A stretch of DNA of 64,000 bases from Escherichia phage vB_EcoS_AKFV33. A program made the position numbers and the translations under genes. Positions 9,003 to 50,404 of this stretch are shown in pieces (positions within the stretch are counted from its first letter, which is position 1; each line of letters starts with the position of its first letter). Under the pieces are notes generated by a model. It saw only the letters and a program-made list of their open reading frames with translations. It was not told where the DNA came from and did not search any database. The DNA is taken from the sequence record NC_017969.1. The stretch is one strand, 5' to 3'.

Positions 9003-9175
9003 CACTTCCATTCTTAAATGCGAATCATTATCATTCGCATTTCACTATCTAACCGATAATCACTCCACTTTTTAAATGAGAATCATTTCACTTTTTGAAT
9101 AGCTCTCATTTCACTTCTTAAATGAGAATAATTATCATTTGCATTCCACTTCTTAAATGATAATGATTCTCATTC
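9003..9175. repeat. four direct copies of ~22-bp motif CACTTCTTAAATGAGAATCATT (some internally palindromic)
   Basis: copies near 9003, 9063, 9107, 9148. Confidence 0.5.
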
Positions 9176-9180
9176 AAAGT

Positions 9181-9200
9181 CGCAGGGCAATTGCCCTGCG
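9181..9200 (+). other. perfect 20-bp palindrome CGCAGGGCAATTGCCCTGCG (hairpin, terminator-like)
   Basis: followed by CTTTTG. Confidence 0.35.
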
Positions 9201-9205
9201 CTTTT

Positions 9206-9943
9206 GTGCAAATCCGACATTGCTCCACGGGTGTTACGTGCGGGCATGTATGTGCGAATCCGACAATTTTTGGTAGTGTGCAAATCCGACCCGAAAAATT
9301 TTTATAGTGTGCAAATCCGACAATGAATTTTCCCAAAAACTCCAGCAATCCGATGCTGCGCATCAATCCTGTGGAATTAGCTAGAATATGTGCAAATCCG
9401 ACATGGGTTTATTTGTGCGAAACCGACAAGATTTTTGTGACTTCGATTGGAGGGTGTGTGATTGTATGGGTTTGGGGAGAAGATAAGAGAGCGAGAGAAA
9501 TTTGGGAGGCTAGAAGGATGGGGCGCATGTTTGGTGCGGAGCACCTGATTTGCGGGGATTTTGGGGAAGAGTTGAGAAGATTTGGGTTAATTTGAGATAA
9601 GTGCAGAAAAAGTAAAATTTTATTAGCAAAATGGGGCAAAATAGCTTGACAAGTGAAAATTTCTGTGGCTCTAAAAACTCAGGCAATCATGGGCCTTCGG
9701 CCCGAAATAATGCTGCCATTTTCAGGAGATTATGTGTCCATGAAAACTTAGGCAATTGTGCAAATCCGACCAGTTTTTAAACTTATGTCAGTGTGCAAAT
9801 CCGACAGTAATTTCTGTAAATGTGTTTTCAAAAAATGTCTCCTAGAAATAACCGCCCTCCCAATAACCGCCCTGTATAGGAAAACCGGCCTAGGATATTT
9901 ATAGCAGGAGAGAAACTGCCCTATAATATGTGCAAATACGACA
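9206..9943 (+). repeat. array of nine direct 14-bp repeats GTGCAAATCCGACA (iteron-like)
   Basis: copies at about 9206, 9251, 9277, 9308, 9389, 9414, 9767, 9792, 9930, all in the same orientation, 0-2 mismatches. Confidence 0.6.
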
Positions 9944-10281: not shown

Positions 10282-11172
10282 TTATTCATCGAACATGAGA
10301 TTTCCTTTCATCCCCATCTCCGCATACTCCATGAGTTCTTTGATGGATCTCACGGGGTAATCTACTTTACTAAAGTTATCATAGATCTTGCACGAACTCT
10401 CGTACAACTCGTTAGGTATCTGCAATTTGTTATCTGTTAGCTTCTCATAACGTGCAGAAGAATTTGTACCCTCAAATAGAACTGCGATAACTGCGGCGAT
10501 TTGTTTAGTAAGATCATCTGCTCCTAGAATTATTCTATTAATAGCAATCGTTACTTCATGCTTAGGTTTAGCAGGCGGAAGGATAGGTTTGAGATCCTTA
10601 GGTAAAGGTTCTGTTCCTAGGAATCCTTCTTTTGTGCGGAACCAATAATTATCTAGATCAGATATCGTCTTAGACTTATTCCAAATAGTAAAGCAGGGTT
10701 TATTTCCTTCACGATCTCTGTATTCACGAACTGGAAGGTAATGATCAGGGAATGAATTGAGTGCATCATGCATCGGTGAGCCTGTCTTTTTGAAGGACAA
10801 ACCATATAACTCATTATAATTCATAACTTCATCTTCGTAAACATGGAAATCTTTATATGCTGGAAGATTAAACCATTCCTGAAGTGAATGAACTGCAAAA
10901 CGTTGTGCCCAAGCATGCATCACTAGAACTCTGTATTCTTTTACTTCATCTTTTGGAGAAGTACCTTTAGCTGTTCTAGCTGAACGAATACAGAACATCT
11001 CAACAACACGTTTCTCATTTAAAGAGAGTTCAGAATAACAACGTTCATGGCAGCCTTCTAGCATTTCTAGAAGTTCACGTAGTTTCTCTACATCGACCGG
11101 TGGAAAAGGTCTTTCTTCAACTGCGAATTTACCAGTTACACCTTTTGGTTTTCTATTACTATAAAATCCCAT
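10282..11172 (-). CDS. hypothetical protein
   Basis: 296 aa ORF; translationally coupled (ATGA overlap) with upstream ORF. Confidence 0.55.
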   Translation of the reverse strand: MGFYSNRKPKGVTGKFAVEERPFPPVDVEKLRELLEMLEGCHERCYSELSLNEKRVVEMFCIRSARTAKGTSPKDEVKEYRVLVMHAWAQRFAVHSLQEWFNLPAYKDFHVYEDEVMNYNELYGLSFKKTGSPMHDALNSFPDHYLPVREYRDREGNKPCFTIWNKSKTISDLDNYWFRTKEGFLGTEPLPKDLKPILPPAKPKHEVTIAINRIILGADDLTKQIAAVIAVLFEGTNSSARYEKLTDNKLQIPNELYESSCKIYDNFSKVDYPVRSIKELMEYAEMGMKGNLMFDE

Positions 11173-28663: not shown

Positions 28664-28738
28664 TGGTGCTCCCACCAGGAATCGAACCCGGTTCAGATGC
28701 TTACAAGGCAACTGCATCGCCAACAATGCTTTAGGAGC
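28664..28738 (-). tRNA. tRNA-Thr (anticodon TGT)
   Basis: T-arm with TTCGATT loop; anticodon loop CTTGTAA; CCA encoded. Confidence 0.7.
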
Positions 28739-29142: not shown

Positions 29143-29218
29143 TGGAGCGGCTAGAGGGAATCGAACCCTACTCGGCGAGGCTTGGAAGGCCTGCGACACA
29201 ACCCGTGTGCTTAACCGC
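29143..29218 (-). tRNA. tRNA-Gly (anticodon TCC)
   Basis: anticodon loop CTTCCAA; T-loop TTCGATT; CCA encoded. Confidence 0.7.
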
Positions 29219-29693: not shown

Positions 29694-29922
29694 AATTGAA
29701 AACTCGCAGGGTTAGCGAAACCTTCCTCAATTAGCATGTTCTAGAATACTAATCAAGTTATCTCCTATTGCACGCAGCTCAAGACGAGTACGAATTTTCA
29801 ATTGTGGCGGCTCTCAGAAACTCTTCTACTCTAGCCTTAGCAGCTTACTCCCGAACGCATGTCGGGGAAGTCTTACTAAGAGCTTCGAATAGCACCGTTA
29901 CACTTTGAGCCATAGATGTATC

Positions 29923-30054
29923 AAGAAGTAGAAGGACTTGAACCTTCACGAGATAGACCATTTATCTCAGCCGCTTTATGAGGTATGTTGCGGGGAGTGG
30001 ATGTTCCCCATAAACCTTTTAGGCAGCCCCGTCTACCAATTCCGGCATACTTCA
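29923..30054 (-). ncRNA. atypical tRNA-like element (T-arm-like hairpin with extra hairpins)
   Basis: T-arm GAAGG-ACTTGAA-CCTTC, 6/7 complementary acceptor-like ends ~130 nt apart; no canonical anticodon loop found. Confidence 0.25.
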
Positions 30055-30059
30055 AGATT

Positions 30060-30154
30060 TGGAGGTAGGTAAGGGGATCGAACCCTTACACCGTATCACT
30101 ACGATCAACCGATTTCAAGTCGGAGTCCAGCGCCAGCCATTGGATTGACCTACC
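30060..30154 (-). tRNA. tRNA-Ser (anticodon TGA), class II
   Basis: long variable arm; anticodon loop CTTGAAA; CCA encoded. Confidence 0.7.
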
Positions 30155-30368: not shown

Positions 30369-30445
30369 TGGTGCGTGACAAGGGATTCGAACCCTCAAAA
30401 CCCGACTTCTAAGGACGGTATGTATGCCCATTCCATCAATCACGC
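30369..30445 (-). tRNA. tRNA with anticodon TAG (Leu-type anticodon, class-I architecture)
   Basis: anticodon loop CTTAGAA; short variable loop; A73 discriminator; CCA encoded. Confidence 0.6.
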
Positions 30446-30450
30446 GTATT

Positions 30451-30529
30451 TGGTGGAGAATAACGGAATCGAACCGTTCTGATGTCCTCGGTGCAAGCGA
30501 GGTGTCCACTCCATGCAGACCCATTCCCC
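30451..30529 (-). tRNA. tRNA-Ala (anticodon TGC)
   Basis: anticodon stem CCTCG/CGAGG, loop CTTGCAC; G3:U70 identity pair present. Confidence 0.75.
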
Positions 30530-30767
30530 AAATTCTTTAGTTTACTAAGGCTATTAGCTCGGCGTAACTACAGCACCTTCGCTTAGAGCGGAAGGAACTA
30601 CGTCATCTCGCAAACCCAATACACTATTCAGTTGCCGCTGAATCTAGTGGACCAATCTAGAACTTCTCCCGAATCGTAGGGATCGTGCTTTTTGGCAGCC
30701 AGTCCTAGGTCGAGCTAATACCTTAGTGAACTATGATGAGGATTTCTCCTCATCAATTTATATAAAT

Positions 30768-30797
30768 ATTATAACAAGAAATTAAGCATCAAGCAAG
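30768..30797 (-). promoter_or_regulatory. sigma70-type early promoter facing a non-coding island
   Basis: conserved promoter motif; only a 12-codon ORF, then ~200 nt of GC-richer non-coding sequence downstream. Confidence 0.45.
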
Positions 30798-31142
30798 TAC
30801 ATTTTTGCAGACTTCTTGTATTTCCTTAACATCGCTAATGAAAAGGTAATCGGAACTTCCAGAGTGCATACTAGACATTAGTACACCACTATCTGGTGCA
30901 TCTTCTTTTAACGTAATGCCTAACCAGAACTCGGCAAAACTAGGTGTTACCTCACCTTGACTTGCCTTGAATACATCGGCTTCTGTGATCTCCTGACCAG
31001 TAGAAAGTCCCATGTACGGTACGTTCAGATCAATATCTTTGTAGAACTCAGCTAAATCTTGTTCGAAGTCCCAACCTTTAGAGATAGCGAACTCCATTGT
31101 CACATGACCGAAATAACCTTGAATCTTGCTTGATAATTGCAT
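30789..31142 (-). CDS. hypothetical protein
   Basis: track ORF starts at a TTG (31148); first ATG at 31142. Confidence 0.45.
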   Translation of the reverse strand: MQLSSKIQGYFGHVTMEFAISKGWDFEQDLAEFYKDIDLNVPYMGLSTGQEITEADVFKASQGEVTPSFAEFWLGITLKEDAPDSGVLMSSMHSGSSDYLFISDVKEIQEVCKNVLA

Positions 31143-31167
31143 TTGCAATTCCTTATTTTGAGTTAAT

Positions 31168-31241
31168 TGGTACCCGGTGATAGAATCGAACTATCTCAAC
31201 CGCCATGTAAAGACGGGGTTCTCCCATTAAACTAACCGAGC
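31168..31241 (-). tRNA. tRNA-Val (anticodon TAC)
   Basis: anticodon loop TTTACAT; CCA encoded. Confidence 0.65.
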
Positions 31242-31245
31242 AAAT

Positions 31246-31324
31246 TGGTAGATCGCCTGGGACTTGAACCCAGAACCTTCCGATTAAAAGTCGGATGCTA
31301 CTAAACCTATTGAGCTAGCGATCT
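31246..31324 (-). tRNA. tRNA-Lys (anticodon TTT)
   Basis: perfect anticodon stem TCCGA/TCGGA, loop CTTTTAA; CCA encoded. Confidence 0.75.
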
Positions 31325-31513
31325 ATTAGTAACCATTGTATACTTCTTTAATAGAGTGAACTTTCAAGTAAGGGTGATTAGTACTAAACTCTGCCATTAC
31401 TTCATCCCAATTTCTACCATAATGAGCAAGTAAGGATTTTGATGTATTCTTACCTAAGCGTTTGTCACTTACTACTAATCGAAATACTTTCATTTCGAAA
31501 TCCTCTATTAAAA

Positions 31514-31591
31514 TGGAAGCGGGTGCAGGAATCGAACCTACCTCTTTCTAGCTTATGAGACTAGCGATCTCTACCAGAGATCTAACCCGCA
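31514..31591 (-). tRNA. tRNA-Met (anticodon CAT)
   Basis: anticodon loop CTCATAA; position 1:72 mismatch; CCA encoded. Confidence 0.7.
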
Positions 31592-31597
31592 ATTGTT

Positions 31598-31675
31598 TGG
31601 TCTCCGTGGGAGGATTTGAACCCCCGACCCTATCGCCCCAAACGAAACGCTCTGGCCAAACTGAGCTACACGGAG
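31598..31675 (-). tRNA. tRNA-Pro (anticodon TGG)
   Basis: perfect acceptor stem; anticodon loop TTTGGGG; CCA encoded. Confidence 0.75.
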
Positions 31676-31679
31676 AATA

Positions 31680-31838
31680 TTATTTCTTCAACCACAACAA
31701 AGATAAGCCAAGCATACTAAAGCCACTAACTAATCCGATACATTTTTCTTCTATAGTAAAAGTATCTAGATTAAATGCTGTTATAGCTATTGGCATACAC
31801 CATAATGCCATAAAAACTTGAGCTATCTTGTGTTTCAT
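31680..31838 (-). CDS. small membrane protein (52 aa)
   Basis: unlisted ORF MKHKIAQVFMALWCMPIAITAF... directly downstream of early promoter. Confidence 0.3.
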   Translation of the reverse strand: MKHKIAQVFMALWCMPIAITAFNLDTFTIEEKCIGLVSGFSMLGLSLLWLKK

Positions 31839-31870
31839 TTTGCTTTCCTTCTCTTCACTTTATAAAATAT

Positions 31871-31900
31871 ATTATACAGATAGTTAAGCAGAATAGCAAA
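31871..31900 (-). promoter_or_regulatory. sigma70-type early promoter
   Basis: ATTATACAG..AGCAAATGAATTTTT motif. Confidence 0.5.
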
Positions 31901-32048
31901 TGAATTTTTAATAAATTTACTTATTGTGTAGGCCACCTGGAGGCTACCAACCCCACGGCTGACAAAGAAGTTTGCGAGACCTCTCTTAAATGCCAGAATA
32001 GACCCGCCGATCTATCGGAACCTACATAATAAGTAAACTTTATAGTGT

Positions 32049-32169
32049 CATTCTAGACAGGACTCGAACCTGTTATCACTTGTGCGGACTTACGAGAACC
32101 ATTCTTTCACTCGAATCGAACGAGCTTCTGCCCTCGCCAAGCTGGTTTCCCCACCAACCACGCTAGAAT
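32049..32169 (-). ncRNA. long tRNA-like RNA (~121 nt): perfect 7-bp acceptor-like stem, D-arm, T-arm and an extra internal TTCGATT hairpin
   Basis: ATTCTAG/CTAGAAT ends, T-arm ACAGG-TTCGAGT-CCTGT; no canonical anticodon loop. Confidence 0.35.
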
Positions 32170-32291
32170 GTTTGATTGTTTTCAGTGCAAGAGTCCGAGT
32201 CTTGGACACGACCGCTTTGCAAGTACATAGGCAGCTTATCATGAGTCAGCACTTCCGAATTGCTAGCTCCGTGTTCTGCACTGAAATTTTA

Positions 32292-32639
32292 TTAGTTTAA
32301 CCTTAAAGTATTATCTACTTCACCATTAATTGTTCGGCATTCCTCTGGAATTGCTGGAGTAGCCTTGTATTCCCACCACTCAGCTCCATCATATTCCCCA
32401 CGTTCTAGCCAGGTTCCATCGGCAAACCATACATTACCATAAAGTAGTTGTCCACCATAACCAGAATCATACTCAAAGTCTAGGTTATTAAGAAAATCCC
32501 CAATATCTTCTTCTGTATACCCCAGAGGTAATACCCAAACTTTTTTGTCCCCATAATACCCGAATTCTATTTTAATACACTTAACTTCAGAATTAGTATT
32601 TTTTAAGGCAAGTAACAACTCTTCTTTAGCATTACGCAT
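32292..32639 (-). CDS. hypothetical protein
   Basis: 115 aa ORF. Confidence 0.45.
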   Translation of the reverse strand: MRNAKEELLLALKNTNSEVKCIKIEFGYYGDKKVWVLPLGYTEEDIGDFLNNLDFEYDSGYGGQLLYGNVWFADGTWLERGEYDGAEWWEYKATPAIPEECRTINGEVDNTLRLN

Positions 32640-32665
32640 AGTATATTTCTCGTGCTAGTTTAGTT

Positions 32666-32741
32666 TGGTACACCCACTAGGACTTGAACCTAGAACCCTC
32701 CGCTTAAGAGGCGGTAGCTCTAACCATTGAGCTATGGATGT
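32666..32741 (-). tRNA. tRNA-Lys (anticodon CTT)
   Basis: anticodon loop CTCTTAA; CCA encoded. Confidence 0.65.
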
Positions 32742-32918
32742 ATTAAATTACTTTTTCCAGTTCATCAGCTATGGCTTTGATTTTTTCAAAGTTTACATCA
32801 CTAATAATGATACCTTCTAGTGACAGAGATATTCTAGCATTTTTCGTAGCAGATTCTTTTATCTGCTCTATCTCTTCTGGAGTAAACTCTCTACGTTCCA
32901 TAGCTAACCTACCTTATT

Positions 32919-32995
32919 TGGCGCGACCGATGGGATTTGAACCCACATTCCCTCCCGTGACAGGGGAGTACCATTACCAAGCCAGCCCCGGTCGC
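32919..32995 (-). tRNA. tRNA-Asp (anticodon GTC)
   Basis: perfect acceptor and anticodon stems; loop CTGTCAC; position cross-checked against ORF-track frame. Confidence 0.8.
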
Positions 32996-33004
32996 ATAAT
33001 TCAT

Positions 33005-33190
33005 TTACTCAGCTTTGAGTTTTTCAATAGCTGCATTAAGTTCTTTAAGAAACTCTTTTCGTACATTAAGACGGTTGAGACTTACTAGTATATCATGTTT
33101 AAGTTCTTCGATGTATTTCTTCTCAACTTCAATATTGTTGATAGTGCTATCACGATGAACTTCTAGCTGCGCAATTACATTCTTGGACAT
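33005..33190 (-). CDS. hypothetical coiled-coil protein
   Basis: 61 aa ORF. Confidence 0.4.
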   Translation of the reverse strand: MSKNVIAQLEVHRDSTINNIEVEKKYIEELKHDILVSLNRLNVRKEFLKELNAAIEKLKAE

Positions 33191-33292
33191 GCTTGTTTCC
33201 TCAGTTATTAATGAAAATGGTATCTGTGGCTGAATTCGATGTCAGCAATGATAGCTGGTTGGCTACCGGTTTACTTAACTCTACACAGAATT

Positions 33293-33375
33293 TGGCGGGC
33301 CGTGTAGGATTCGAACCTACGTTGTCTTTCGACATGGATTAACAGTCCACCGCCAAACCGCTTGGCTAACGACCC
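33293..33375 (-). tRNA. tRNA-Asn (anticodon GTT) with extended variable region
   Basis: D-stem GCCA/TGGC, anticodon loop CTGTTAA; 83 nt. Confidence 0.6.
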
Positions 33376-33381
33376 TGAATT

Positions 33382-33456
33382 TGGAGCACCCTGCTGGAAT
33401 TGAACCAACCTAGACGATTTTGCAGACCGTCACCTAAGCCACTCGGACAAGGATGC
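33382..33456 (-). tRNA. tRNA-Cys (anticodon GCA)
   Basis: anticodon loop CTGCAAA; CCA encoded. Confidence 0.65.
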
Positions 33457-33458
33457 AA

Positions 33459-33647
33459 TTATTCTTTATCTTCCGGCCATGAAAAGTGGATTAGATTTGC
33501 TGGCCCAAGAGTCCTGCAATAATATCCATCACCATGATCATAACCACATGTTCCACATTCACACATCTTAAATTCACCAAACTTAGTGAATAAGATTTCT
33601 GTGTCACAACAGTCGAACTTAACTAATTTAGCTTTTGGCTTCTTCAT
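33459..33647 (-). CDS. Cys-rich small protein
   Basis: 62 aa; CCDTE..CECGTCGYDHGDGYYC. Confidence 0.4.
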   Translation of the reverse strand: MKKPKAKLVKFDCCDTEILFTKFGEFKMCECGTCGYDHGDGYYCRTLGPANLIHFSWPEDKE

Positions 33648-33886
33648 TTAACACGCTCCGGTAGATCTTCGAGGTTATATTCCGTTGCTACACCAGCAGC
33701 ATCTAATAGTAAACCCATATGTTTAAGGATTTTAGTGATAGATTCACCTTCTGCTTCTTCTACAAAAGAACGTAGATGAACAAAGTCAATACCCCCATCC
33801 ATACCAGAGAAAATGTTTAGTAAGCGGAGCATTACCAGCTTACGTTCATTCAATTCTTGTTCTGTCATGTTGCTTCTCCAGTTCAA
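33644..33886 (-). CDS. hypothetical protein
   Basis: 80 aa ORF; early promoter upstream. Confidence 0.4.
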   Translation of the reverse strand: MNWRSNMTEQELNERKLVMLRLLNIFSGMDGGIDFVHLRSFVEEAEGESITKILKHMGLLLDAAGVATEYNLEDLPERVK

Positions 33887-33918
33887 TTTATGTAATTATT
33901 ATACAGAACTTTTGGAAA

Positions 33919-34206
33919 CTAAGCAACTACATTTTTTAAGAATTTGATACCTTTCTTTTTCTTCTTATATTTCCACGTTAATGGATTCTGTCGATTGTGA
34001 ACGCTTGAGATCTTTGTCTCGTCAAAGTTCTTCAATATCATGTAATCACAGGATAATTGTTCTAATGGAATGTGATTACCGTCAAAAGCATATACATAAG
34101 GCTGTTGACTAGCACGATAATGATAGACTTTGTTAATTCTACGTTTCAGCGACTTATCCGCGCAGTAAATAAAGAAGTTTTCAGGATGCATCAGCAGCTC
34201 CTTCAA
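33919..34206 (-). CDS. hypothetical protein
   Basis: 95 aa ORF (TTG start in track). Confidence 0.4.
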   Translation of the reverse strand: MKELLMHPENFFIYCADKSLKRRINKVYHYRASQQPYVYAFDGNHIPLEQLSCDYMILKNFDETKISSVHNRQNPLTWKYKKKKKGIKFLKNVVA

Positions 34207-34208
34207 TT

Positions 34209-34284
34209 TGGTGCACCCTGTTCGTATCGAACGAACCTCTCAAGCTCTTCAGGCAAGCGCTAATCCATCTCAGCTAAAGGTGCA
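34209..34284 (-). tRNA. tRNA-Phe (anticodon GAA), tentative
   Basis: anticodon loop CTGAAGA with weak stem; T-stem GTTCG/CGAAC. Confidence 0.5.
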
Positions 34285-34289
34285 AATTT

Positions 34290-34366
34290 TGGCAAACCTA
34301 CTAGGACTCGAACCTAGACCGTACGGTTTTGGAGACCGACATGCTGTCCAGTAACACTCTAGGAAT
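34290..34366 (-). tRNA. tRNA-Trp (anticodon CCA)
   Basis: anticodon loop CTCCAAA; two mismatches in acceptor stem. Confidence 0.7.
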
Positions 34367-34374
34367 GCAGAAAT

Positions 34375-34451
34375 TGGCGTCCTGTGCGGGGATCGAACCC
34401 GCAAATCCTACCTTGAAAGGGTAGTGACTTTACCAGTTTGTCTAACAGGGC
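34375..34451 (-). tRNA. tRNA-Glu (anticodon TTC)
   Basis: perfect anticodon stem CTACC/GGTAG, loop CTTTCAA. Confidence 0.75.
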
Positions 34452-34458
34452 TTAAATT

Positions 34459-34549
34459 TGGTGTTGGATGATGGAGTCGAACCACCCGAGACCCTTCCGA
34501 GTCGGCAGATTTACAGTCTGCTTCGCTACCTCTACGATACTAATCCAAC
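34459..34549 (-). tRNA. tRNA-Tyr (anticodon GTA), class II
   Basis: perfect acceptor and anticodon stems (GCAGA/TCTGC), loop CTGTAAA, long variable arm. Confidence 0.8.
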
Positions 34550-34677
34550 ATATTTAAAAATACTAAAATACTAGTTTAAACACTTTTAAATATGTTTCCA
34601 AATTAGATAACTATTATACCAAGTTTTAAGGCACTGAGCAAGTCAAATTTTAAAGAACTTGCTCAGTGCTGTATTAG

Positions 34678-34953
34678 TTAGTCGAACTTAGGAGTGACAG
34701 CTAAGGAGAATGGAAGTTCGAAAACTTCTTCACCCTCATCACTAACAGTAATTACACGGCCTTTAAGTTCAGACATTGAAATATCAATATCAGCTTTTGC
34801 ATCTGGAGCCATTCCAGCTTCAACACATTTAGCTTTAACTTCCGGCAGAAGTTCTACATCGTAGAAATAAAGCCATTCAATCTCACCTTCCCAGCCTTCC
34901 CAGGATTTACAGATTGCACTTTCAATACCAGTTGCTATAACACGATTTTGCAT
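34678..34953 (-). CDS. hypothetical protein
   Basis: 91 aa ORF. Confidence 0.45.
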   Translation of the reverse strand: MQNRVIATGIESAICKSWEGWEGEIEWLYFYDVELLPEVKAKCVEAGMAPDAKADIDISMSELKGRVITVSDEGEEVFELPFSLAVTPKFD

Positions 34954-35043
34954 TAGTTAACTCCTTCATCAATTTATATAACTATTATATCAGAAATTTA
35001 AAGCAAAAGGCAAGTACATTTTTAAAAATTCTATTTGGAGGAG

Positions 35044-35250
35044 CTAAACTCCAGATTCTTCAGCCAAGTCTAGACTAATAAGAGATATAGCCATAATTGC
35101 TGCTGTGTGCTCTTTTTCTCCAGTCTCTTTAGCTAGAGTTATAATATCAAGAATTTGCTTATGAAAGTCTGCAACCTCTTGAGTCATACCTGCTTCAGCA
35201 ATCATGCCTTTAAGCATGAAACGTTGTGCGGTAATTTCAGGATTAGCCAT
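35044..35250 (-). CDS. hypothetical protein
   Basis: 68 aa ORF. Confidence 0.4.
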   Translation of the reverse strand: MANPEITAQRFMLKGMIAEAGMTQEVADFHKQILDIITLAKETGEKEHTAAIMAISLISLDLAEESGV

Positions 35251-35425
35251 GTTGTTTCTCCAGTTTCATCTTTAATAGTCTACAAATAAAATCAATGTCT
35301 TCATCCGTGCCTAAATCTCTATCTTCAAGAGTTGCCTTGAAGTTTTTAGTCAATTCCATGAGGATAACTTCTCTAGAACGACGTGTTGGCGGAGGTGGAG
35401 GTCTATACATCTTATTTCCTTAATT

Positions 35426-35502
35426 TGGTAGGGGTGGTGGGATTCGAACCCACAAAACCTGAATTTTAAGTCCAGTACCTATGCCAATTCGATTACACCC
35501 CC
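35426..35502 (-). tRNA. tRNA with anticodon TAA (Leu-type anticodon, class-I architecture)
   Basis: anticodon stem CTGGA/TTCAG, loop CTTAAAA; A73; CCA encoded. Confidence 0.6.
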
Positions 35503-35603
35503 GTGTAATCAGTTTATTAGTTGATACATATTATAGCCTAGTGAAAATCCTACTACTAGTCCCACAAACCAACCAATATAATAATCTTTTAGTTTCACAG
35601 ATA

Positions 35604-35789
35604 TTACCCTCTTTCAATATCTAGAGAAATACCACAGTTAGGATTAATACCTGTACCATTGCAATTTGGGCAAACCCAGATATTGCAAAAAGTATCTCCT
35701 GCTTCTGCATCAGAACTTTCACCAATTCCCCTACACTCAGGGCAGGCACATTCTTCTAGCTCTTGCTTGAGTTCTTGAAACTTGGACAT
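35604..35789 (-). CDS. DnaJ-type zinc-finger small protein
   Basis: 61 aa; CPECRGIG and CPNCNGTG repeats. Confidence 0.45.
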   Translation of the reverse strand: MSKFQELKQELEECACPECRGIGESSDAEAGDTFCNIWVCPNCNGTGINPNCGISLDIERG

Positions 35790-35798
35790 ATAGTCTCC

Positions 35799-35987
35799 TT
35801 AGTCAATTACTTTTGAGGCCTCAAGGTAGTCGATATAGTGTACGTTTTCTACCGTAATCATATAATCTGCCACTTTATCCATAGCTTGGGCTTCAGAGGT
35901 AGCTCTGGCTAACCTATATCCTTTTTTATATTCATCAGGGTATTCTCTATCTTGAATAAACACAACATAAACTATGTATAATTCCAC
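35799..35987 (-). CDS. small hypothetical protein
   Basis: track ORF 35799-36134 reads through a tRNA gene; trimmed to GTG with SD AGGGGA. Confidence 0.35.
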   Translation of the reverse strand: MELYIVYVVFIQDREYPDEYKKGYRLARATSEAQAMDKVADYMITVENVHYIDYLEASKVID

Positions 35988-36007: not shown

Positions 36008-36085
36008 TGGTGGCTCCCCGAGGATTCGAACCTACGTACCTTCCAGTTATGAGCTGGGTGCTCATACCATATGAGCTTGAGAACC
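36008..36085 (-). tRNA. tRNA-Met or Ile2 (anticodon CAT)
   Basis: D-stem GCTC/GAGC, anticodon loop CTCATAA; position cross-checked against ORF-track frame. Confidence 0.65.
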
Positions 36086-36091
36086 AGAATT

Positions 36092-36180
36092 TGGCGGAAG
36101 AAGTGGGAATCGAACCCACAAGGCTATATTTCAAACCGACAGATTAGCAATCTGCTGCAATACCGTTATGCTATTCTTCC
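36092..36180 (-). tRNA. tRNA-Ser (anticodon GCT), class II
   Basis: perfect 7-bp acceptor stem; anticodon loop TTGCTAA; long variable arm. Confidence 0.75.
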
Positions 36181-36201
36181 GAATTTATAAGATATATTAT
36201 A

Positions 36202-36720
36202 TTAGAAATTTAGCTTCATAGCAAGAAAATTTTTCAAGTTTTCGGTAGACATCTCATCCACATCTACAGGAGAAACAAAGCCGTTTAATTTTCTAGCAAA
36301 TTTTTCACCCGCAGGATCGTTATTCCCGACAGCTACCAATTTAAAAGGTAATAATTTCAGTTGCTTTAATAACGCTTTTCCTGGAGAAGAACCCAACATT
36401 GCTAGGGCTGGATAACCAGCGTTATGTAACGCAACTGCCTTAAATACAGATTCAGCGATCAATACTACTTTTTCATCTCCATTGAGAGTTTCTAATCCCC
36501 ATACACACTGGGTAGTAGAATAGGTAAAATATTTAGCTTCAAAGGGACACTTACCATGACCTTTTGGAGCAGAAGGATTATAAGTTTGATAGCCTCTCAA
36601 CATCCCAGAGAAATCATACAACGGGACTGTTAGCCATCCTTCCGGACTTAACCAGCAATGATATTTATCTGCATCAAATCCTCTAGATAGAAGATGTTGT
36701 GTTAATTCATCAACACCCAT
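36202..36720 (-). CDS. small TOPRIM-like domain protein
   Basis: 172 aa; VVLIAESVFKA..YPALAMLGSS..LVAVGNNDPAGEKFARKL resembles the TOPRIM acidic motif arrangement; call is low-certainty. Confidence 0.5.
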   Translation of the reverse strand: MGVDELTQHLLSRGFDADKYHCWLSPEGWLTVPLYDFSGMLRGYQTYNPSAPKGHGKCPFEAKYFTYSTTQCVWGLETLNGDEKVVLIAESVFKAVALHNAGYPALAMLGSSPGKALLKQLKLLPFKLVAVGNNDPAGEKFARKLNGFVSPVDVDEMSTENLKNFLAMKLNF

Positions 36721-37873: not shown

Positions 37874-38375
37874 TTTAAGTATTTTTAAGAACTCTCGTAA
37901 AAACTCTTAAAAATACAGACGATACCGGGAGAGTCATAAGTCTCACTCATTAAGTATTTCAAGACAAAATACAGTAACGTCTATTATTTTCCAGTTTAAG
38001 TCAGGGTGACTTAGTGGTTATGTCCTGCGGTATATTGAGGACTCGGTTAGGCTTGGGGTCATGACTTCCCGCCTTTTGCTGCTACTCAACAGGAATTATC
38101 GCGAATTACCTGTGCTATTGTGCACCATTAGTGACATCTCTCATGTCAGCATTTCCCACTTTGTGGATAGCTTGAAAAACTACTCCGATGTGGAGAAAGA
38201 ACTTCACTATCCTAGAATACCTTCTAAAGTTCTTCTTTAGCCTGGACATAGTTAAACCGTAATAAAACTATTCAGCAGACTGGTTGGTTAGTCTGGAACC
38301 AACTACCGCGTGGTTTAGGCAGTGCGCAACTAACCTCGGAAGCTTTTACGTTAAAAGCATCAGTTATCCAGTTCT

Positions 38376-38447
38376 TACCGACCGTAGGATTCGAACCTAC
38401 ATCTTCCACCAGTTACGGCTTGATAATACCAATTATACTAGGACGGC
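38376..38447 (-). ncRNA. tRNA-like element with canonical T-arm but no resolvable anticodon arm
   Basis: T-arm GTAGG-TTCGAAT-CCTAC; acceptor pairing 6/7. Confidence 0.3.
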
Positions 38448-38525
38448 AGTGTTACTACATAAGTGATTTCCACACCCCACTATTTATAAATTAGATGCCT
38501 AATTATCATCTAATTTATGAATATA

Positions 38526-47931: not shown

Positions 47932-50262
47932 TTAAATAGTACAACCACCGGATGCACAACCGGCTGCTTCTTCTCCAGCACCTCCACCATTTGCGGTATT
48001 GAAGTTAGCGTAATACCAAGTTTTCCACCCATACTTAACAGCAGTCATGAAATCACGAACTACTACTGGGCCAGGAATGATTTCATTCTCAAACTTGGTG
48101 TAGTCATAGTACATATTCGTACTGATAGACTGACTGAAGAATTTCTGCATAGTTGCTACCCATTTGATCCACTCGATACGATCTACATCATAAGCCAGTT
48201 TATAGCTCATTAACGTTTCCCAATCGGTTGCACCTGGAGCAATTGCAATTACTTTATTTACTGCACTACCTTTAATAGATACAATCTTACGAGGCGGTTC
48301 GATAGAGTTAGTAACTCCTAGCAGAACAGAAGAACTTTCTCCTGGCATCTGAGCAGTCAGAACAGAGTTACGCATACCATATTTCAGAATATCTGCACGC
48401 AGAGACTCCCAATCCATTTCTAGACCTACGGATACCAGTTCATCAACAGTTTTCTTGTACGTGTCGATTACCAGAATTCCTTTAGATGGTTTAGTGCGAT
48501 CAAACCACTCGCATGCACCCTGTTCTTTAGCTAGGCGTACAGAGGCTTTATGCAGGAAGTAAGACAGTTTTTCAGCCTCACGGTGAATCCAGTTACGGGC
48601 TTCAATACCTTCATAAGCCAGACCTTCTGCTGCCATTGCACCTGCTGCGTTCATTAGTCCAATACCAACATTACGACGTTTCTTAGCCGTATATTCCATA
48701 GTTGGGAACGGATAATCCTGAATTTCAATAATTGTATCAACGAATTTCAGAAGGATGTAGCAAGTTTTTTCCCACTCAGCCAGAGATTCCATGCGCCCAA
48801 GTACAACACCACCTAAGTTACACAGAGATACTTCACCAATATCCTCCGGCTTCATTTGATCAAGCTGCTCTTTTGTCTTATACAGCTCTGTGATATGATG
48901 GAACGGGCGTGTAGGCTGAGTAATTTCAACACAAAGGTTTGTCATACGGATCGGATCAAGGAAGTTACCGTGACGATTAGATTCCCCGATGTGATGAGCA
49001 TACATACGTCCTGTTTCCATTCGGATACGTAGCCAAGTATCTAGGATTTCTTTTGCAGAGACTTTAGGAGCTGCAGGAACTGTTTTTCCTTCGTGGTCGA
49101 TCTTTGTAAGAGATGCCACACGTTTCTCCGCTGCCACGTAGATTTCTTCAAATTTAGCCTCGTCATCACTATAAAACGCTTCATGAACTTCTGGAGCATA
49201 GAAGTATGACATTAGCGTAATATCTTCGTTTTTAAGATAACGTTTTAACAAAAGATTGTTAAAGCTCAGAGAATAATCCATCTTATCGATTTTATTCTCA
49301 TCTGTAGCACGTTGTTGCTTAACCTGCATCAATTGAATGATTTCAGGGTCGAAGTATGGATAAGACACTGTAGCAGAACCACCACGAGTTTGCTGAGTAT
49401 TGGCCTTTACTGAGCGGTCAATGTGTCGATAATATGGTAGTTTTCCGGAATGCGGGAATGCCCCATTTCGCACCGGATCAGCAATTGATCGGCTTTCAAG
49501 ATGATACCCGATTCCCGCTCTGGCTGCGACCATTTTGAAGACGATGTGCTCGGCGGTGTCGATTGAATCCAACGTGTCAGTGGAATCCACGAGGCAGCAA
49601 CTAGCAAATCCACGGTCACTAGAGCGCAGACCAACCAGTGGCGGCGTAGGAACGTTGATTTTGTGGAGTGACATTGCGTTGTAGAGGTCGATTGCATCTA
49701 GAATTGTCCAGTTAGGTTGAGATAACATCGCCATTGCCATACCCATGTAGGCAAACTGCGGAGTTTCATAAATTTCACCAGTGGCTATGTTACGACGGGA
49801 ATACTTATCAAAGAACTGCTTCAGTCCACCACTAGTAAAAAGACGGTCACGATCATGGTCGATAACCTGATTCAGAGCTTCAAATTGCTCATCGGTAATC
49901 CATGCACTCATGTCTTCCCATGCACCTACGCTAACCATGTGGTCATGGAAGAAGCGCAGAGAAGGCGGTTCGAAGGAATCATAAAGGCGTTTACGCATTT
50001 GCGCAAGACGTAATTCCTTTGCTGGCACATCATATGCTGGATTATCTTTAATAAGACTTTCAGCAGCTTTAATTAATGCATCCATCAGAGTGTCGGAATC
50101 TACAACCCCTTTAGGCAGAGTTTTTTGAGCAGCCATAGTAATGGCTGACCAACTTACATCAACTGTTTTGCAACCATACTCTGCCCAACCATTTAGTTTT
50201 TCAGGAGCAAAGTCTTCTACAGTACCGTCACGTTTAATTACTTTTTCAATGCGATGGCTCAT
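47932..50262 (-). CDS. nrdA: ribonucleotide reductase class Ia alpha subunit
   Basis: ATP-cone N-terminus (MSHRIEKVIKRDGT); track ORF extends to 50367 but ATG at 50262 has SD AAAGGAAAG. Confidence 0.85.
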   Translation of the reverse strand: MSHRIEKVIKRDGTVEDFAPEKLNGWAEYGCKTVDVSWSAITMAAQKTLPKGVVDSDTLMDALIKAAESLIKDNPAYDVPAKELRLAQMRKRLYDSFEPPSLRFFHDHMVSVGAWEDMSAWITDEQFEALNQVIDHDRDRLFTSGGLKQFFDKYSRRNIATGEIYETPQFAYMGMAMAMLSQPNWTILDAIDLYNAMSLHKINVPTPPLVGLRSSDRGFASCCLVDSTDTLDSIDTAEHIVFKMVAARAGIGYHLESRSIADPVRNGAFPHSGKLPYYRHIDRSVKANTQQTRGGSATVSYPYFDPEIIQLMQVKQQRATDENKIDKMDYSLSFNNLLLKRYLKNEDITLMSYFYAPEVHEAFYSDDEAKFEEIYVAAEKRVASLTKIDHEGKTVPAAPKVSAKEILDTWLRIRMETGRMYAHHIGESNRHGNFLDPIRMTNLCVEITQPTRPFHHITELYKTKEQLDQMKPEDIGEVSLCNLGGVVLGRMESLAEWEKTCYILLKFVDTIIEIQDYPFPTMEYTAKKRRNVGIGLMNAAGAMAAEGLAYEGIEARNWIHREAEKLSYFLHKASVRLAKEQGACEWFDRTKPSKGILVIDTYKKTVDELVSVGLEMDWESLRADILKYGMRNSVLTAQMPGESSSVLLGVTNSIEPPRKIVSIKGSAVNKVIAIAPGATDWETLMSYKLAYDVDRIEWIKWVATMQKFFSQSISTNMYYDYTKFENEIIPGPVVVRDFMTAVKYGWKTWYYANFNTANGGGAGEEAAGCASGGCTI

Positions 50263-50404
50263 TTGGCTTTCCTTTTTATAGTTATCAGGATTTAAGGAAT
50301 ATTCTACTTTATTATCGGTCATTAGGCAAATAAAATTTTCTGATAGAAAAGGCCCGAGTATTTTCATACCCAGGCCCTGTATATTACCAGTCTAGCTTTT
50401 TAGC

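What the first reader, a model, noticed from the sequence alone, without database searches (positions are those of the whole stretch)
30369..35502. Two class-I (short variable arm) tRNAs carrying leucine anticodons TAG and TAA
tRNAs at 30369-30445 (loop CTTAGAA) and 35426-35502 (loop CTTAAAA) are about 77 nt with 5-nt variable loops and A73. Bacterial tRNA-Leu normally has a long variable arm, and no class-II Leu tRNA was found in the cluster. They may be unusual Leu tRNAs or have a different identity.
Basis: seen in the sequence. Interest (0 to 1): 0.45.

Follow-up and report, generated by a model that had tools for sequence, protein, structure and literature searches.

The report
Short-armed leucine tRNAs of T5-like phage
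The two genes are real, already catalogued leucine tRNAs of T5-like phages that lack the long extra arm textbook leucine tRNAs carry but keep every feature the E. coli leucine-charging enzyme is known to need, so they are unusual in shape but most likely ordinary in function.

Summary
The window is a T5-like phage. At 30369-30445 and 35426-35502 (minus strand), ARAGORN and Rfam both find 77-nt tRNAs, CCA included, with anticodons UAG and UAA, 5-nt variable loops (GUUUU) and A73. The cluster holds about 26 tRNAs and none is a long-armed tRNALeu.

These genes are not new. The UAA tRNA is 100% identical to tRNAL2 of Salmonella phage 5. The UAG tRNA differs by one D-loop base from tRNAL1 of BF23 and phage 5. 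The GenBank notes say both become effective amber suppressors once the anticodon is replaced.

Both tRNAs keep the E. coli LeuRS identity set: A73, U8/A14, A15:U48, and a 3-bp D stem with the loop N13-AAYNGGYA-N-A22. That D arm is shared with E. coli leuZ/leuW and the T5 class II tRNALeu, and occurs in about 0.5% of non-Leu phage tRNAs. CUA and UUA make up 19% and 27% of the phage's Leu codons. In NrdA these codons align with Leu in distant homologues.

The best reading is that they are genuine leucine tRNAs charged by host LeuRS. Charging with leucine is inferred, not shown.

Two capped scans found about 190 distinct short-armed tRNALeu in viral contigs. In a control sample chosen without regard to Leu, 34 of 35 tRNALeu were long-armed.

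The parts
30369..30445 (-). tRNA-Leu(UAG), class I. It is 74 nt plus an encoded CCA, with a 7/3/5/5 cloverleaf, variable loop GUUUU, A73 and a U30.U40 mismatch. It is the orthologue of BF23/phage 5 tRNAL1 with one D-loop difference (U17 to G).
35426..35502 (-). tRNA-Leu(UAA), class I. It is 74 nt plus an encoded CCA, with variable loop GUUUU, A73, a G1.U72 pair and A36-A37-A38 in the anticodon loop. It is 100% identical to tRNAL2 of Salmonella phage 5.
30451..30529 (-). tRNA-Ala(UGC), lying 5 nt upstream of tRNA-Leu(UAG) on the coding strand. It is probably part of the same precursor transcript (inferred from spacing and from the T5-group annotation).
30751..30796 (-). Partial match (46 of 75 nt, 100% identity) to the promoter annotated as P13b in phage 5. 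It lies upstream of rna2H, tRNA-Ala and tRNA-Leu(UAG). Promoter function is inferred from the annotation of the relative, not tested.
36169..36243 (-). Full-length 100% match to the promoter annotated as P15b in phage 5. It lies upstream of tRNA-Ser(GCU), tRNA-Ile2(CAU), ORF trn2.2* and tRNA-Leu(UAA). Function is inferred from the annotation of the relative.

Best explanation
Both genes are functional leucine isoacceptor tRNAs of a T5-like phage. They have lost, or never had, the long variable arm. They are transcribed with neighbouring tRNAs and small ORFs from early phage promoters, and processed to 77-nt tRNAs with a gene-encoded CCA. The host leucyl-tRNA synthetase charges them with leucine. 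That enzyme ignores both the anticodon and the variable arm; it recognises A73 plus the tertiary 'elbow' (U8:A14, A15:U48, G18G19 in a Leu-type D loop with A20a). The tRNAs decode CUA (perhaps other CUN codons) and UUA/UUG. These are the leucine codons the AT-rich phage uses far more than E. coli does, so the tRNAs keep phage translation supplied. Shown here: the genes, their fold, their identity with annotated and tested T5-group genes, the presence of the Leu identity set, and the Leu meaning of CUA and UUA. Inferred: charging by LeuRS with leucine, the transcription units, and codon supply as the selective benefit.
For: The fold and register are agreed by two independent methods. RNAalifold on 40 short-armed Leu tRNAs, including these two, predicts a 7/3/5/5 cloverleaf with a 5-nt variable loop. 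All 20 pairs show compensatory changes, and U8, G18G19 and A73 are invariant. A14 was tabulated separately: 136 of 155 unique class I Leu tRNAs.

The UAA tRNA equals phage 5 tRNAL2 at 100% identity. The UAG tRNA equals BF23/phage 5 tRNAL1 apart from one base. The GenBank notes state that replacing the anticodon with CUA makes each an effective amber suppressor. This means they are processed, charged independently of the anticodon, and used by the ribosome in E. coli.

A structural line-up with E. coli leuZ and leuW and the T5 class II tRNAL1 shows the same U8, 3-bp D stem, 11-nt N13-A14-A15-Y-N-G18-G19-Y-A20a-K-A22 loop, U48, A73 and CCA. Only the variable region differs: 15/13/13/11/5/5 nt.

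That D-arm signature occurs in 100 of 155 class I Leu tRNAs, 22 of 43 class II Leu tRNAs and 6 of about 1100 non-Leu tRNAs from viral loci. In the window it occurs only in the two Leu tRNAs and in Glu, which has G73.

A73 is present in 155 of 155 unique class I Leu tRNAs and in 95 of 95 class I UAA tRNAs. In the UAA set, positions 15:48 co-vary: A:U 64, G:C 20, G:G 11.

The review PMC9976931 states that E. coli LeuRS needs A73, A15-U48, G18G19 and A20a, but neither the anticodon nor the long arm. It also reports that truncated tRNALeu lacking both arms stays active.

Codon use in 79 window ORFs gives UUA 27% and CUA 19% of Leu codons. In NrdA, CUA and UUA positions align with Leu in homologues of 37-50% identity as often as other Leu codons do: 0.48 and 0.67, against CUG 0.59 and CUU 0.44.

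Conservation is high. The UAA tRNA is at least 99% identical in 290 phage records. The UAG tRNA is at least 95% identical in 160.
Against: No aminoacylation data were available to me. The GenBank notes do not say which amino acid the suppressor forms insert, and CUA-anticodon tRNAs are known to be prone to mischarging by GlnRS or LysRS.

Fan et al. 2019 (PMC6614811) found that E. coli LeuRS could not charge the natural short-armed tRNALeu(CAA) of Streptomyces coelicolor. They describe EcLeuRS as charging only long-armed tRNALeu. Charging of a natural short-armed tRNALeu by EcLeuRS therefore cannot be taken for granted.

The crystal structure discussed in that paper shows the LeuRS C-terminal domain touching the tip of the variable arm, so efficiency may be lower.

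A15:U48 alone is not Leu-specific in these AT-rich phages: up to about two thirds of Arg and Gln tRNAs have it.

The NrdA codon test rests on only 10 CUA and 6 UUA positions.
Confidence: 0.85

Rival explanations
1. The tRNAs are leucine acceptors as above, but the short variable loop is itself an adaptation. Losing the arm would let the phage tRNALeu escape host factors that grip the long arm of class II tRNAs, such as tRNA-targeting toxins or nucleases. The phage would then keep a protected leucine-decoding pool during infection.
For: A toxin of the abortive-infection-related MenT family uses the long variable arm of tRNASer as its anchor; deleting the arm abolishes modification and grafting it confers modification (PMC11541572). 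Phage tRNAs are known to counter tRNA-cleaving defences (PMC10644984 citing van den Berg 2023 and Azam 2023; PMC13056530). The phage keeps long arms on Ser and Tyr tRNAs, whose synthetases use the arm, and drops it only for Leu, where the synthetase does not need it. Short-armed UAG tRNAs 82-86% identical to this one occur in unrelated enterobacterial phage families: Felixounavirus, PVPSE1 and Pectobacterium Wc4. At the L1 site, the short-armed allele is commoner among T5-like records than the T5-type long-armed allele: 160 against about 52 records at 95% identity or more.
Against: I found no defence system known to target tRNALeu through its variable arm. MenT3 prefers Ser over Leu. The one bacterial Schlafen studied cuts Lys, Met, Ala, Val, Phe and Ile tRNAs in the anticodon arm, not class II tRNAs specifically. 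The pattern is equally explained by neutral loss of a dispensable arm. In a sample of viral loci chosen without regard to Leu, 34 of 35 tRNALeu kept the long arm, so there is no general pressure to lose it.
Confidence: 0.15
2. The tRNAs have a non-leucine identity. They would be charged by another synthetase and insert a different amino acid at CUA and UUA/UUG codons, a sense-codon reassignment or deliberate mistranslation.
For: The class I shape is atypical for bacterial tRNALeu. EcLeuRS failed on a natural class I tRNALeu from Streptomyces. The UAA anticodon shares A35 and A36 with tRNAPhe(GAA), and both tRNAs have A73, which many class I tRNAs also have.
Against: CUA and UUA positions in NrdA align with Leu in distant homologues at the same rate as other Leu codons; no other residue exceeds 13% at CUA positions (I) or 8% at UUA positions (F). 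These codons make up 46% of the window's Leu codons, and host tRNALeu reads them too, so a second meaning would scramble the proteome. Determinants for Ala (G3:U70), Ser, His, Gly and Cys are absent. The Leu-type D arm is present. The suppressor activity after an anticodon change rules out synthetases that depend on the native anticodon.
Confidence: 0.04
3. They are decayed or non-translational tRNA-like elements, such as pseudogenes, decoys or processing signals, rather than working adaptors.
For: One related record labels the UAG gene 'tRNA-OTHER' (NBEco001). The UAG tRNA has a U.U mismatch in the anticodon stem and a 3-bp D stem. The T5 tRNA region does contain several tRNA-like stable RNAs of unknown function.
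Against: Both give full-length matches to the tRNA model well above threshold and have an encoded CCA. Sequence is near-invariant across hundreds of phage genomes. The wider family shows compensatory changes in every stem. GenBank notes record effective suppression by the anticodon-swapped forms. The 3-bp D stem is the normal tRNALeu state.
Confidence: 0.03

Closest known systems
tRNAL1 of phage BF23 and Salmonella phage 5, and tRNAL2 of phage 5 (GenBank NC_042564.1 and AJ604531.1, tRNA gene regions)
   Same: They occupy the same genomic positions and have the same length (77 nt). The UAA tRNA is 100% identical and the UAG tRNA 76 of 77 identical. Both are annotated as tRNA-Leu reading CUA and UUA, with notes that CUA-anticodon versions are effective amber suppressors.
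   Different: There is one D-loop base difference (U17 to G) in the UAG tRNA; that variant is itself found unchanged in 19 phage records. The records do not comment on the missing long arm, and they do not name the amino acid inserted.
tRNAL1(UAG) of phage T5 itself (NC_005859), 85 nt, class II
   Same: It has the same locus next to tRNA-Ala, the same anticodon, A73, U8, 3-bp D stem, Leu-type D loop, U48 and encoded CCA.
   Different: T5 has a 13-nt variable arm, and the stems have unrelated sequence. The short-armed gene is therefore an alternative allele at this site, not a simple deletion derivative. A third, 83-nt allele with an 11-nt variable region occurs in phage STP-SP2. T5 and BF23 lack the UAA tRNA and carry the HNH endonuclease gene hegA in that interval.
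E. coli tRNALeu(UAG) leuW and tRNALeu(UAA) leuZ
   Same: The anticodons match. So does the LeuRS identity set: A73, U8:A14, A15:U48, G18G19, A20a and a 3-bp D stem with 13:22 unpaired (identity set from PMC9976931).
   Different: The host tRNAs have 13- and 15-nt variable arms and are 85 and 87 nt long. There is no detectable sequence homology. leuW has G37, whereas the phage UAG tRNA has A37.
Type I tRNALeu(CAA) of Streptomyces coelicolor (Fan et al. 2019, PMC6614811)
   Same: It is a natural bacterial-system tRNALeu with a 5-nt variable loop. It coexists with long-armed tRNALeu and is served by a single LeuRS.
   Different: It is a chromosomal actinomycete gene with a different anticodon. 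Its LeuRS does not use A73 and has a special leucine-specific domain, and E. coli LeuRS could not charge it. The phage tRNAs work in E. coli and Salmonella and keep the E. coli identity set.
Animal mitochondrial tRNALeu(UUR) and tRNALeu(CUN)
   Same: They are class I leucine tRNAs whose identity rests on A73 and A14 (PMC9976931).
   Different: They are served by a dedicated mitochondrial LeuRS, have degenerate elbows and lack an encoded CCA. They have no relationship to phage or enterobacterial systems.
Engineered minimal E. coli tRNALeu lacking the variable and anticodon arms (Larkin et al. 2002, as summarised in PMC9976931)
   Same: These show that EcLeuRS can leucylate tRNALeu without the long arm, provided A73 and the D/T-loop tertiary contacts are intact. 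This is the mechanism proposed here.
   Different: They are laboratory constructs tested in vitro. The phage tRNAs would be natural equivalents.

Membership tests
tRNA (Rfam RF00005 cloverleaf) | Full-length match to the covariance model above the gathering score, with a canonical 7-nt anticodon loop | tested here: met
   47.7 and 57.4 bits against a threshold of 29, model positions 1-71 of 71. ARAGORN gives the same register.
E. coli-type tRNALeu (substrate of enterobacterial LeuRS) | Discriminator A73 | tested here: met
   A73 is present in both. It is invariant in 155 of 155 and 95 of 95 related short-armed Leu tRNAs.
E. coli-type tRNALeu (substrate of enterobacterial LeuRS) | Tertiary core: U8:A14, the A15:U48 Levitt pair, and G18G19 placed in a Leu-type D loop with A20a on a 3-bp D stem | tested here: met
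   The line-up with leuZ, leuW and T5 L1 shows identical architecture. The signature is found in about 0.5% of non-Leu phage tRNAs, against 65% of class I Leu and 51% of class II Leu.
E. coli-type tRNALeu (substrate of enterobacterial LeuRS) | Long variable arm (class II architecture, more than 10 nt) | tested here: not met
   The variable loop is GUUUU, 5 nt, in both. According to PMC9976931 this arm is characteristic of tRNALeu but is not an identity element for E. coli LeuRS.
E. coli-type tRNALeu (substrate of enterobacterial LeuRS) | Is aminoacylated with leucine | not testable with these tools
   Only indirect support is available: suppressor activity noted in GenBank and the Leu meaning of CUA and UUA in NrdA.
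T5-group tRNAL1 / tRNAL2 genes | Sequence identity and conserved position within the T5-type tRNA gene region | tested here: met
   76 of 77 and 77 of 77 nt identical. The neighbours are the same: tRNA-Ala upstream of L1, and ORFs trn2.2* and trn2.3 flanking L2.
Class I (type I) tRNA | Variable region of 4-5 nt with no helix | tested here: met
   5 nt in both.
Nonsense-suppressor or recoding tRNA | Anticodon complementary to a stop codon, or evidence that the codon read has a non-standard meaning | tested here: not met
   Anticodons 5'-UAG-3' and 5'-UAA-3' pair with the sense codons CUA and UUA/UUG, not with stop codons. CUA and UUA positions align with Leu in homologues.
tRNAAla, tRNASer, tRNAHis, tRNAGly or tRNACys (other identities that do not depend on the native anticodon) | G3:U70 (Ala); G73 plus long arm (Ser); G-1/C73 (His); U73 (Gly, Cys) | tested here: not met
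   Both have G3-C70, A73, no 5' extra G and a short variable loop.

The most novel reading that the evidence does not exclude
Short-armed tRNALeu may be a recurrent, selected viral design rather than a neutral curiosity. On this reading, tRNA-rich phages of enterobacteria and many uncultivated viruses replace the class II leucine tRNA with a class I form. Host LeuRS still charges it, but arm-dependent host factors (toxins, nucleases, or regulators of class II tRNAs) cannot grip it. A T5-like infection of E. coli would then also be a natural case, not recognised in the literature I could search, of a proteobacterial LeuRS serving both architectures in one cell. That would contradict the published statement that EcLeuRS charges only long-armed tRNALeu.
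Probability: 0.15. Interest if true: 0.65.

Novelty: already known. Interest (0 to 1): 0.35.

Why it matters
For this window the result is mainly a clarification. The two odd-looking genes are catalogued T5-group leucine tRNAs, and their shape is compatible with what E. coli LeuRS is known to require.

Two points may interest tRNA specialists. First, a current review states that tRNALeu carries a long arm everywhere except animal mitochondria (PMC9976931). A 2019 study presents Streptomyces as the only case of one LeuRS serving both architectures, and describes E. coli LeuRS as restricted to long-armed tRNALeu (PMC6614811). Phages that grow on E. coli and Salmonella carry natural short-armed tRNALeu that work as suppressors in E. 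coli. They offer a ready test of those statements. Second, the same architecture recurs in about 190 distinct viral tRNAs with invariant A73, so it is a lineage under selection, although a minority one.

Tried and rejected
1. Host origin. BLAST of both tRNAs against 5,426 complete E. coli genomes found no chromosomal relative, only a 23-nt T-arm match to plasmid 'tRNA-OTHER' genes. Recent capture from the host is rejected.

2. Simple deletion of the arm from the T5 class II allele. The stems are unrelated in sequence, so this is rejected in favour of allele replacement.

3. Escape from a Schlafen-type nuclease specific for class II tRNAs. The only bacterial Schlafen characterised cuts Lys, Met, Ala, Val, Phe and Ile tRNAs in the anticodon arm. 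There is no support, so the idea is kept only as a low-probability variant.

4. Prevalence. A first estimate held that short-armed forms dominate phage tRNALeu(UAG): 49 of 58. It was conditional on the search pattern (A37 loop, TTCGAAT T loop). I rejected it after a control sample chosen through an Arg(UCU)-type pattern gave 34 long-armed and 1 short-armed tRNALeu.

5. One search was a mis-specified scan. Its gap range excluded 5-nt variable loops. It was repeated correctly.

6. Literature. Searches for an explicit description of short-armed phage tRNALeu found nothing beyond the Streptomyces paper. Older T5 and BF23 tRNA papers are not in the searchable library, so such a description may exist.

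7. A15:U48 as a Leu-specific marker. It is common in Arg and Gln tRNAs of these phages, so I relied on the whole D-arm signature instead.

Full report
**What the window is.** An 8-kb stretch around the finding matches 594 phage records. The best match is Escherichia phage IME178 at 96% identity, and all close matches are T5-like siphoviruses (Demerecviridae, Tequintavirus and relatives) of Escherichia and Salmonella (taxonomy). G+C content is about 39%. The region from 27.8 to 38.5 kb is the T5-type tRNA gene region, all on the minus strand.

**Checking the observation.** ARAGORN finds 23 tRNAs. They include tRNA-Leu(tag) at 30369-30445 and tRNA-Leu(taa) at 35426-35502, each 77 nt. Rfam's tRNA model matches both from the first to the last model position in the same register, at 47.7 and 57.4 bits against a threshold of 29.

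The drawn cloverleaf and my segment-by-segment parse agree on:
- a 7-bp acceptor stem and a 3-bp D stem with an 11-nt loop;
- a 5-bp anticodon stem, with a U30.U40 mismatch in the UAG tRNA;
- anticodon loops CUUAGAA and CUUAAAA;
- a 5-nt variable loop GUUUU, a 5-bp T stem, the T loop UUCGAAU, A73 and an encoded CCA.

Only five bases separate the anticodon stem from the T stem, so a hidden long arm is impossible. Rfam and BLAST against T5 add three tRNAs that ARAGORN missed: Gly(UCC), Ile2(CAU) and a divergent long-armed Ser(UGA). None is a tRNALeu, so the phage has no class II leucine tRNA.

**These genes are already catalogued.** The tRNA regions of T5, BF23 and Salmonella phage 5 were deposited with detailed annotation. 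The window's UAA tRNA is 100% identical to 'tRNAL2' of phage 5. That gene is annotated 'codon recognized: UUA; replacement of the anticodon with CUA sequence converts this tRNA into effective amber suppressor'.

The UAG tRNA differs at a single D-loop base from 'tRNAL1' of BF23 and phage 5. That gene is annotated as reading CUA and as an effective amber suppressor after the same change. The one-base variant is itself found unchanged in 19 phage records.

Such suppression requires four things: the RNA is made, it is processed, it is charged by a synthetase that does not read the anticodon, and the ribosome accepts it. The notes do not name the amino acid inserted.

**The locus is polymorphic.** T5 itself has an 85-nt long-armed tRNALeu(UAG) at the same place beside tRNA-Ala. 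Phage STP-SP2 has an 83-nt form with an 11-nt variable region. The window, BF23 and phage 5 have the 77-nt form.

The stems of these alleles are unrelated in sequence, although the downstream flank is shared by the window and the STP-SP2 allele. The short form is therefore an alternative cassette, not a deletion derivative. Among phage records, the short allele is at least 95% identical in 160, and the T5-type long allele in about 52.

The UAA tRNA is at least 99% identical in 290 records. T5 and BF23 lack it and carry the HNH endonuclease gene hegA in that interval.

**Identity.** I could not run isotype-specific tRNA models, so I tested the known determinants directly. The review of tRNA identity (PMC9976931) states that E. 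coli LeuRS depends on A73 and on the tertiary core: A15-U48, G18G19 and A20a, plus the D/T-loop contacts. Neither the anticodon nor the long arm matters, and truncated tRNALeu lacking both arms remains active.

I fetched E. coli leuZ and leuW and aligned them by structure with the T5 long-armed tRNALeu and the two window tRNAs. All share U8, a 3-bp D stem, the loop N13-A14-A15-Y-N-G18-G19-Y-A20a-K-A22, U48, A73 and CCA. Only the variable region differs.

To see how specific this D arm is, I ran ARAGORN on 1,303 tRNAs from viral loci and applied a pattern for it:

| tRNA group | With the Leu-type D arm |
|---|---|
| Short-armed Leu | 100 of 155 |
| Long-armed Leu | 22 of 43 |
| Non-Leu | 6 of about 1,100 |

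In the window the pattern fits only the two Leu tRNAs and tRNA-Glu, which has G73. A15:U48 alone is less specific, because Arg and Gln tRNAs of these phages often have it. Determinants for the other anticodon-independent identities are absent: G3:U70, G73 with a long arm, C73/G-1 and U73.

**Do the codons mean leucine?** In 79 long ORFs of the window, UUA and CUA make up 27% and 19% of leucine codons, and CUG 16%. From general knowledge, E. coli uses roughly 13%, 4% and 50%. The two tRNAs therefore match the two codons most over-used relative to the host.

In the ribonucleotide reductase large subunit (47932-50367, minus strand), positions encoded by CUA and UUA align with Leu in homologues of 37-50% identity at rates of 0.48 and 0.67. 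The rates for CUG and CUU are 0.59 and 0.44, and no alternative residue stands out. The sample is small (10 and 6 positions), but it gives no hint of reassignment.

- For UAG, 102 of 120 hits fold as cloverleaves and 92 are unique.
- For UAA, 103 of 117 hits fold as cloverleaves and 95 are unique.
- All 187 have A73 and U8.
- In the UAA set, positions 15 and 48 co-vary: A:U 64, G:C 20, G:G 11.

RNAalifold on 40 of these, including both window tRNAs, independently predicts the 7/3/5/5 cloverleaf with a 5-nt variable loop and finds compensatory changes in all 20 pairs. Short-armed Leu tRNAs with CAA, GAG, AAG and CAG anticodons occur in the same loci, often beside long-armed ones.

In bacterial and archaeal genome contigs the same pattern gave only 31 tRNAs among 120 hits. 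Most of these lie in dense tRNA arrays, and a few are single genes in actinomycetes.

**A necessary correction.** A first estimate suggested that short-armed forms dominate phage tRNALeu(UAG), at 49 of 58. That count was conditional on my search pattern. In viral loci selected through an unrelated Arg(UCU)-type pattern, 34 of 35 distinct tRNALeu were long-armed, as were all 19 tRNASer and 8 of 9 tRNATyr.

Short-armed tRNALeu is thus a recurrent minority lineage. It is concentrated in tRNA-rich phages: the loci that carry it have a median of 11.5 tRNAs.

**Mechanism.** The most likely account has four steps. The genes are transcribed from the early promoters that the T5-group records annotate. 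Homologues of P13b and P15b lie upstream at 30751-30796 and 36169-36243. The transcripts are processed to CCA-ending tRNAs and leucylated by host LeuRS through A73 and the elbow. The tRNAs are then used to read CUA and UUA/UUG. The A36-A37-A38 motif of the UAA tRNA suggests the usual i6A37 pathway, which is an inference only.

The main caution comes from Fan et al. 2019. They found that E. coli LeuRS could not charge the natural short-armed tRNALeu(CAA) of Streptomyces coelicolor, and concluded that the E. coli enzyme handles only long-armed substrates. That tRNA belongs to a system in which A73 is not even an identity element, so it is not a close model. It does show that charging must be measured rather than assumed.

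**Why the arm is missing** remains open. Neutral loss of a dispensable arm fits all the data. An adaptive reading, escape from host factors that hold class II tRNAs by the arm, has a precedent in the MenT3 toxin and tRNASer. It has no direct support for leucine. The one bacterial Schlafen studied is not class II specific.

**Verdict.** The feature is real and its genes are already known. It is unusual in architecture but most probably conventional in function. I found no paper that comments on the missing arm in phage tRNALeu, but the older T5 and BF23 literature is outside the searchable library.

Noticed in passing
window 33293-33375 (-): tRNA-Asn(GUU) is 83 nt with a 12-nt variable region that contains a GUC-GAAA-GAC hairpin. 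It is a normally class I tRNA carrying a small extra arm, the mirror image of the Leu case. Phage 5 has the same 83-nt form, annotated as convertible to an amber suppressor, whereas T5 has a 78-nt form.
   Followed up: partly
window 30451-30529 (-): ARAGORN calls tRNA-Ala(UGC) here: 79 nt, G3:U70 present, 3-bp D stem, 7-nt variable loop. Rfam does not list it even at E-value up to 1. The T5 counterpart was reported to be cleaved by a bacterial Schlafen more efficiently than the host tRNAAla (PMC13056530).
   Followed up: no
window 29143-29218, 36008-36085, about 30060-30154 (all -): ARAGORN missed three tRNAs. Two are orthologues of T5 tRNA-Gly(UCC) (98.7% identity) and tRNA-Ile2(CAU) (100%). 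The third is a divergent 91-nt long-armed tRNA with anticodon loop CUUGAAA (Ser UGA), of which only the 3' half resembles T5 tRNAS1. It apparently has U73 rather than G73.
   Followed up: partly
window 38376-38447 (-): A tRNA-like element (RF00005, 35.5 bits) lies inside the homologue of the T5 stable RNA 'RNAX' (37874-38495). ARAGORN does not call it, and its anticodon-loop region looks irregular.
   Followed up: no
window 29695-30056, 30549-30720, 31925-32170, 33218-33290: Homologues of the T5 'stable RNAs of unknown function' are all present at 85-100% identity: RNAIII, RNAI, RNA1, rna2H, RNAIV, RNA2 and RNA3.
   Followed up: no
window 35426-35968 compared with L002 (T5) 10380-11063 and L004 (BF23) 9166-9849: In this window and in phage 5, the interval holds tRNA-Leu(UAA) and ORF trn2.2*. 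In T5 and BF23 the same interval is occupied by the HNH homing-type endonuclease gene hegA. Neither hegA nor hegC gave a BLAST match in the window.
   Followed up: partly
phage records (e.g. NC_016071.1 PVPSE1, JN225449.1 UAB_Phi87, MN270891.1 Wc4): Short-armed tRNALeu(UAG) genes 80-86% identical to the window's occur in unrelated enterobacterial phage groups: Felixounavirus, PVPSE1 and Pectobacterium Wc4. This suggests exchange of the tRNA cassette between phage families, or a common source.
   Followed up: no
L257, L262, L282, L304 (genome contigs of Pseudonocardia, Jatrophihabitans, Pseudonocardiaceae): Single short-armed tRNALeu(UAG) genes with no tRNA array around them occur in actinomycete contigs. 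This recalls the Streptomyces coelicolor type I tRNALeu(CAA). Other genome hits sit in arrays of 10-31 tRNAs within 8 kb, mostly in Acidobacteriota MAGs.
   Followed up: no
L001 1154-1240 and L003 1936-2022: tRNA-Thr(UGU) is 87 nt in phages STP-SP2 and phage 5, but 75 nt in this window (28664-28738) and in T5. This is another tRNA locus with alleles of different length.
   Followed up: no
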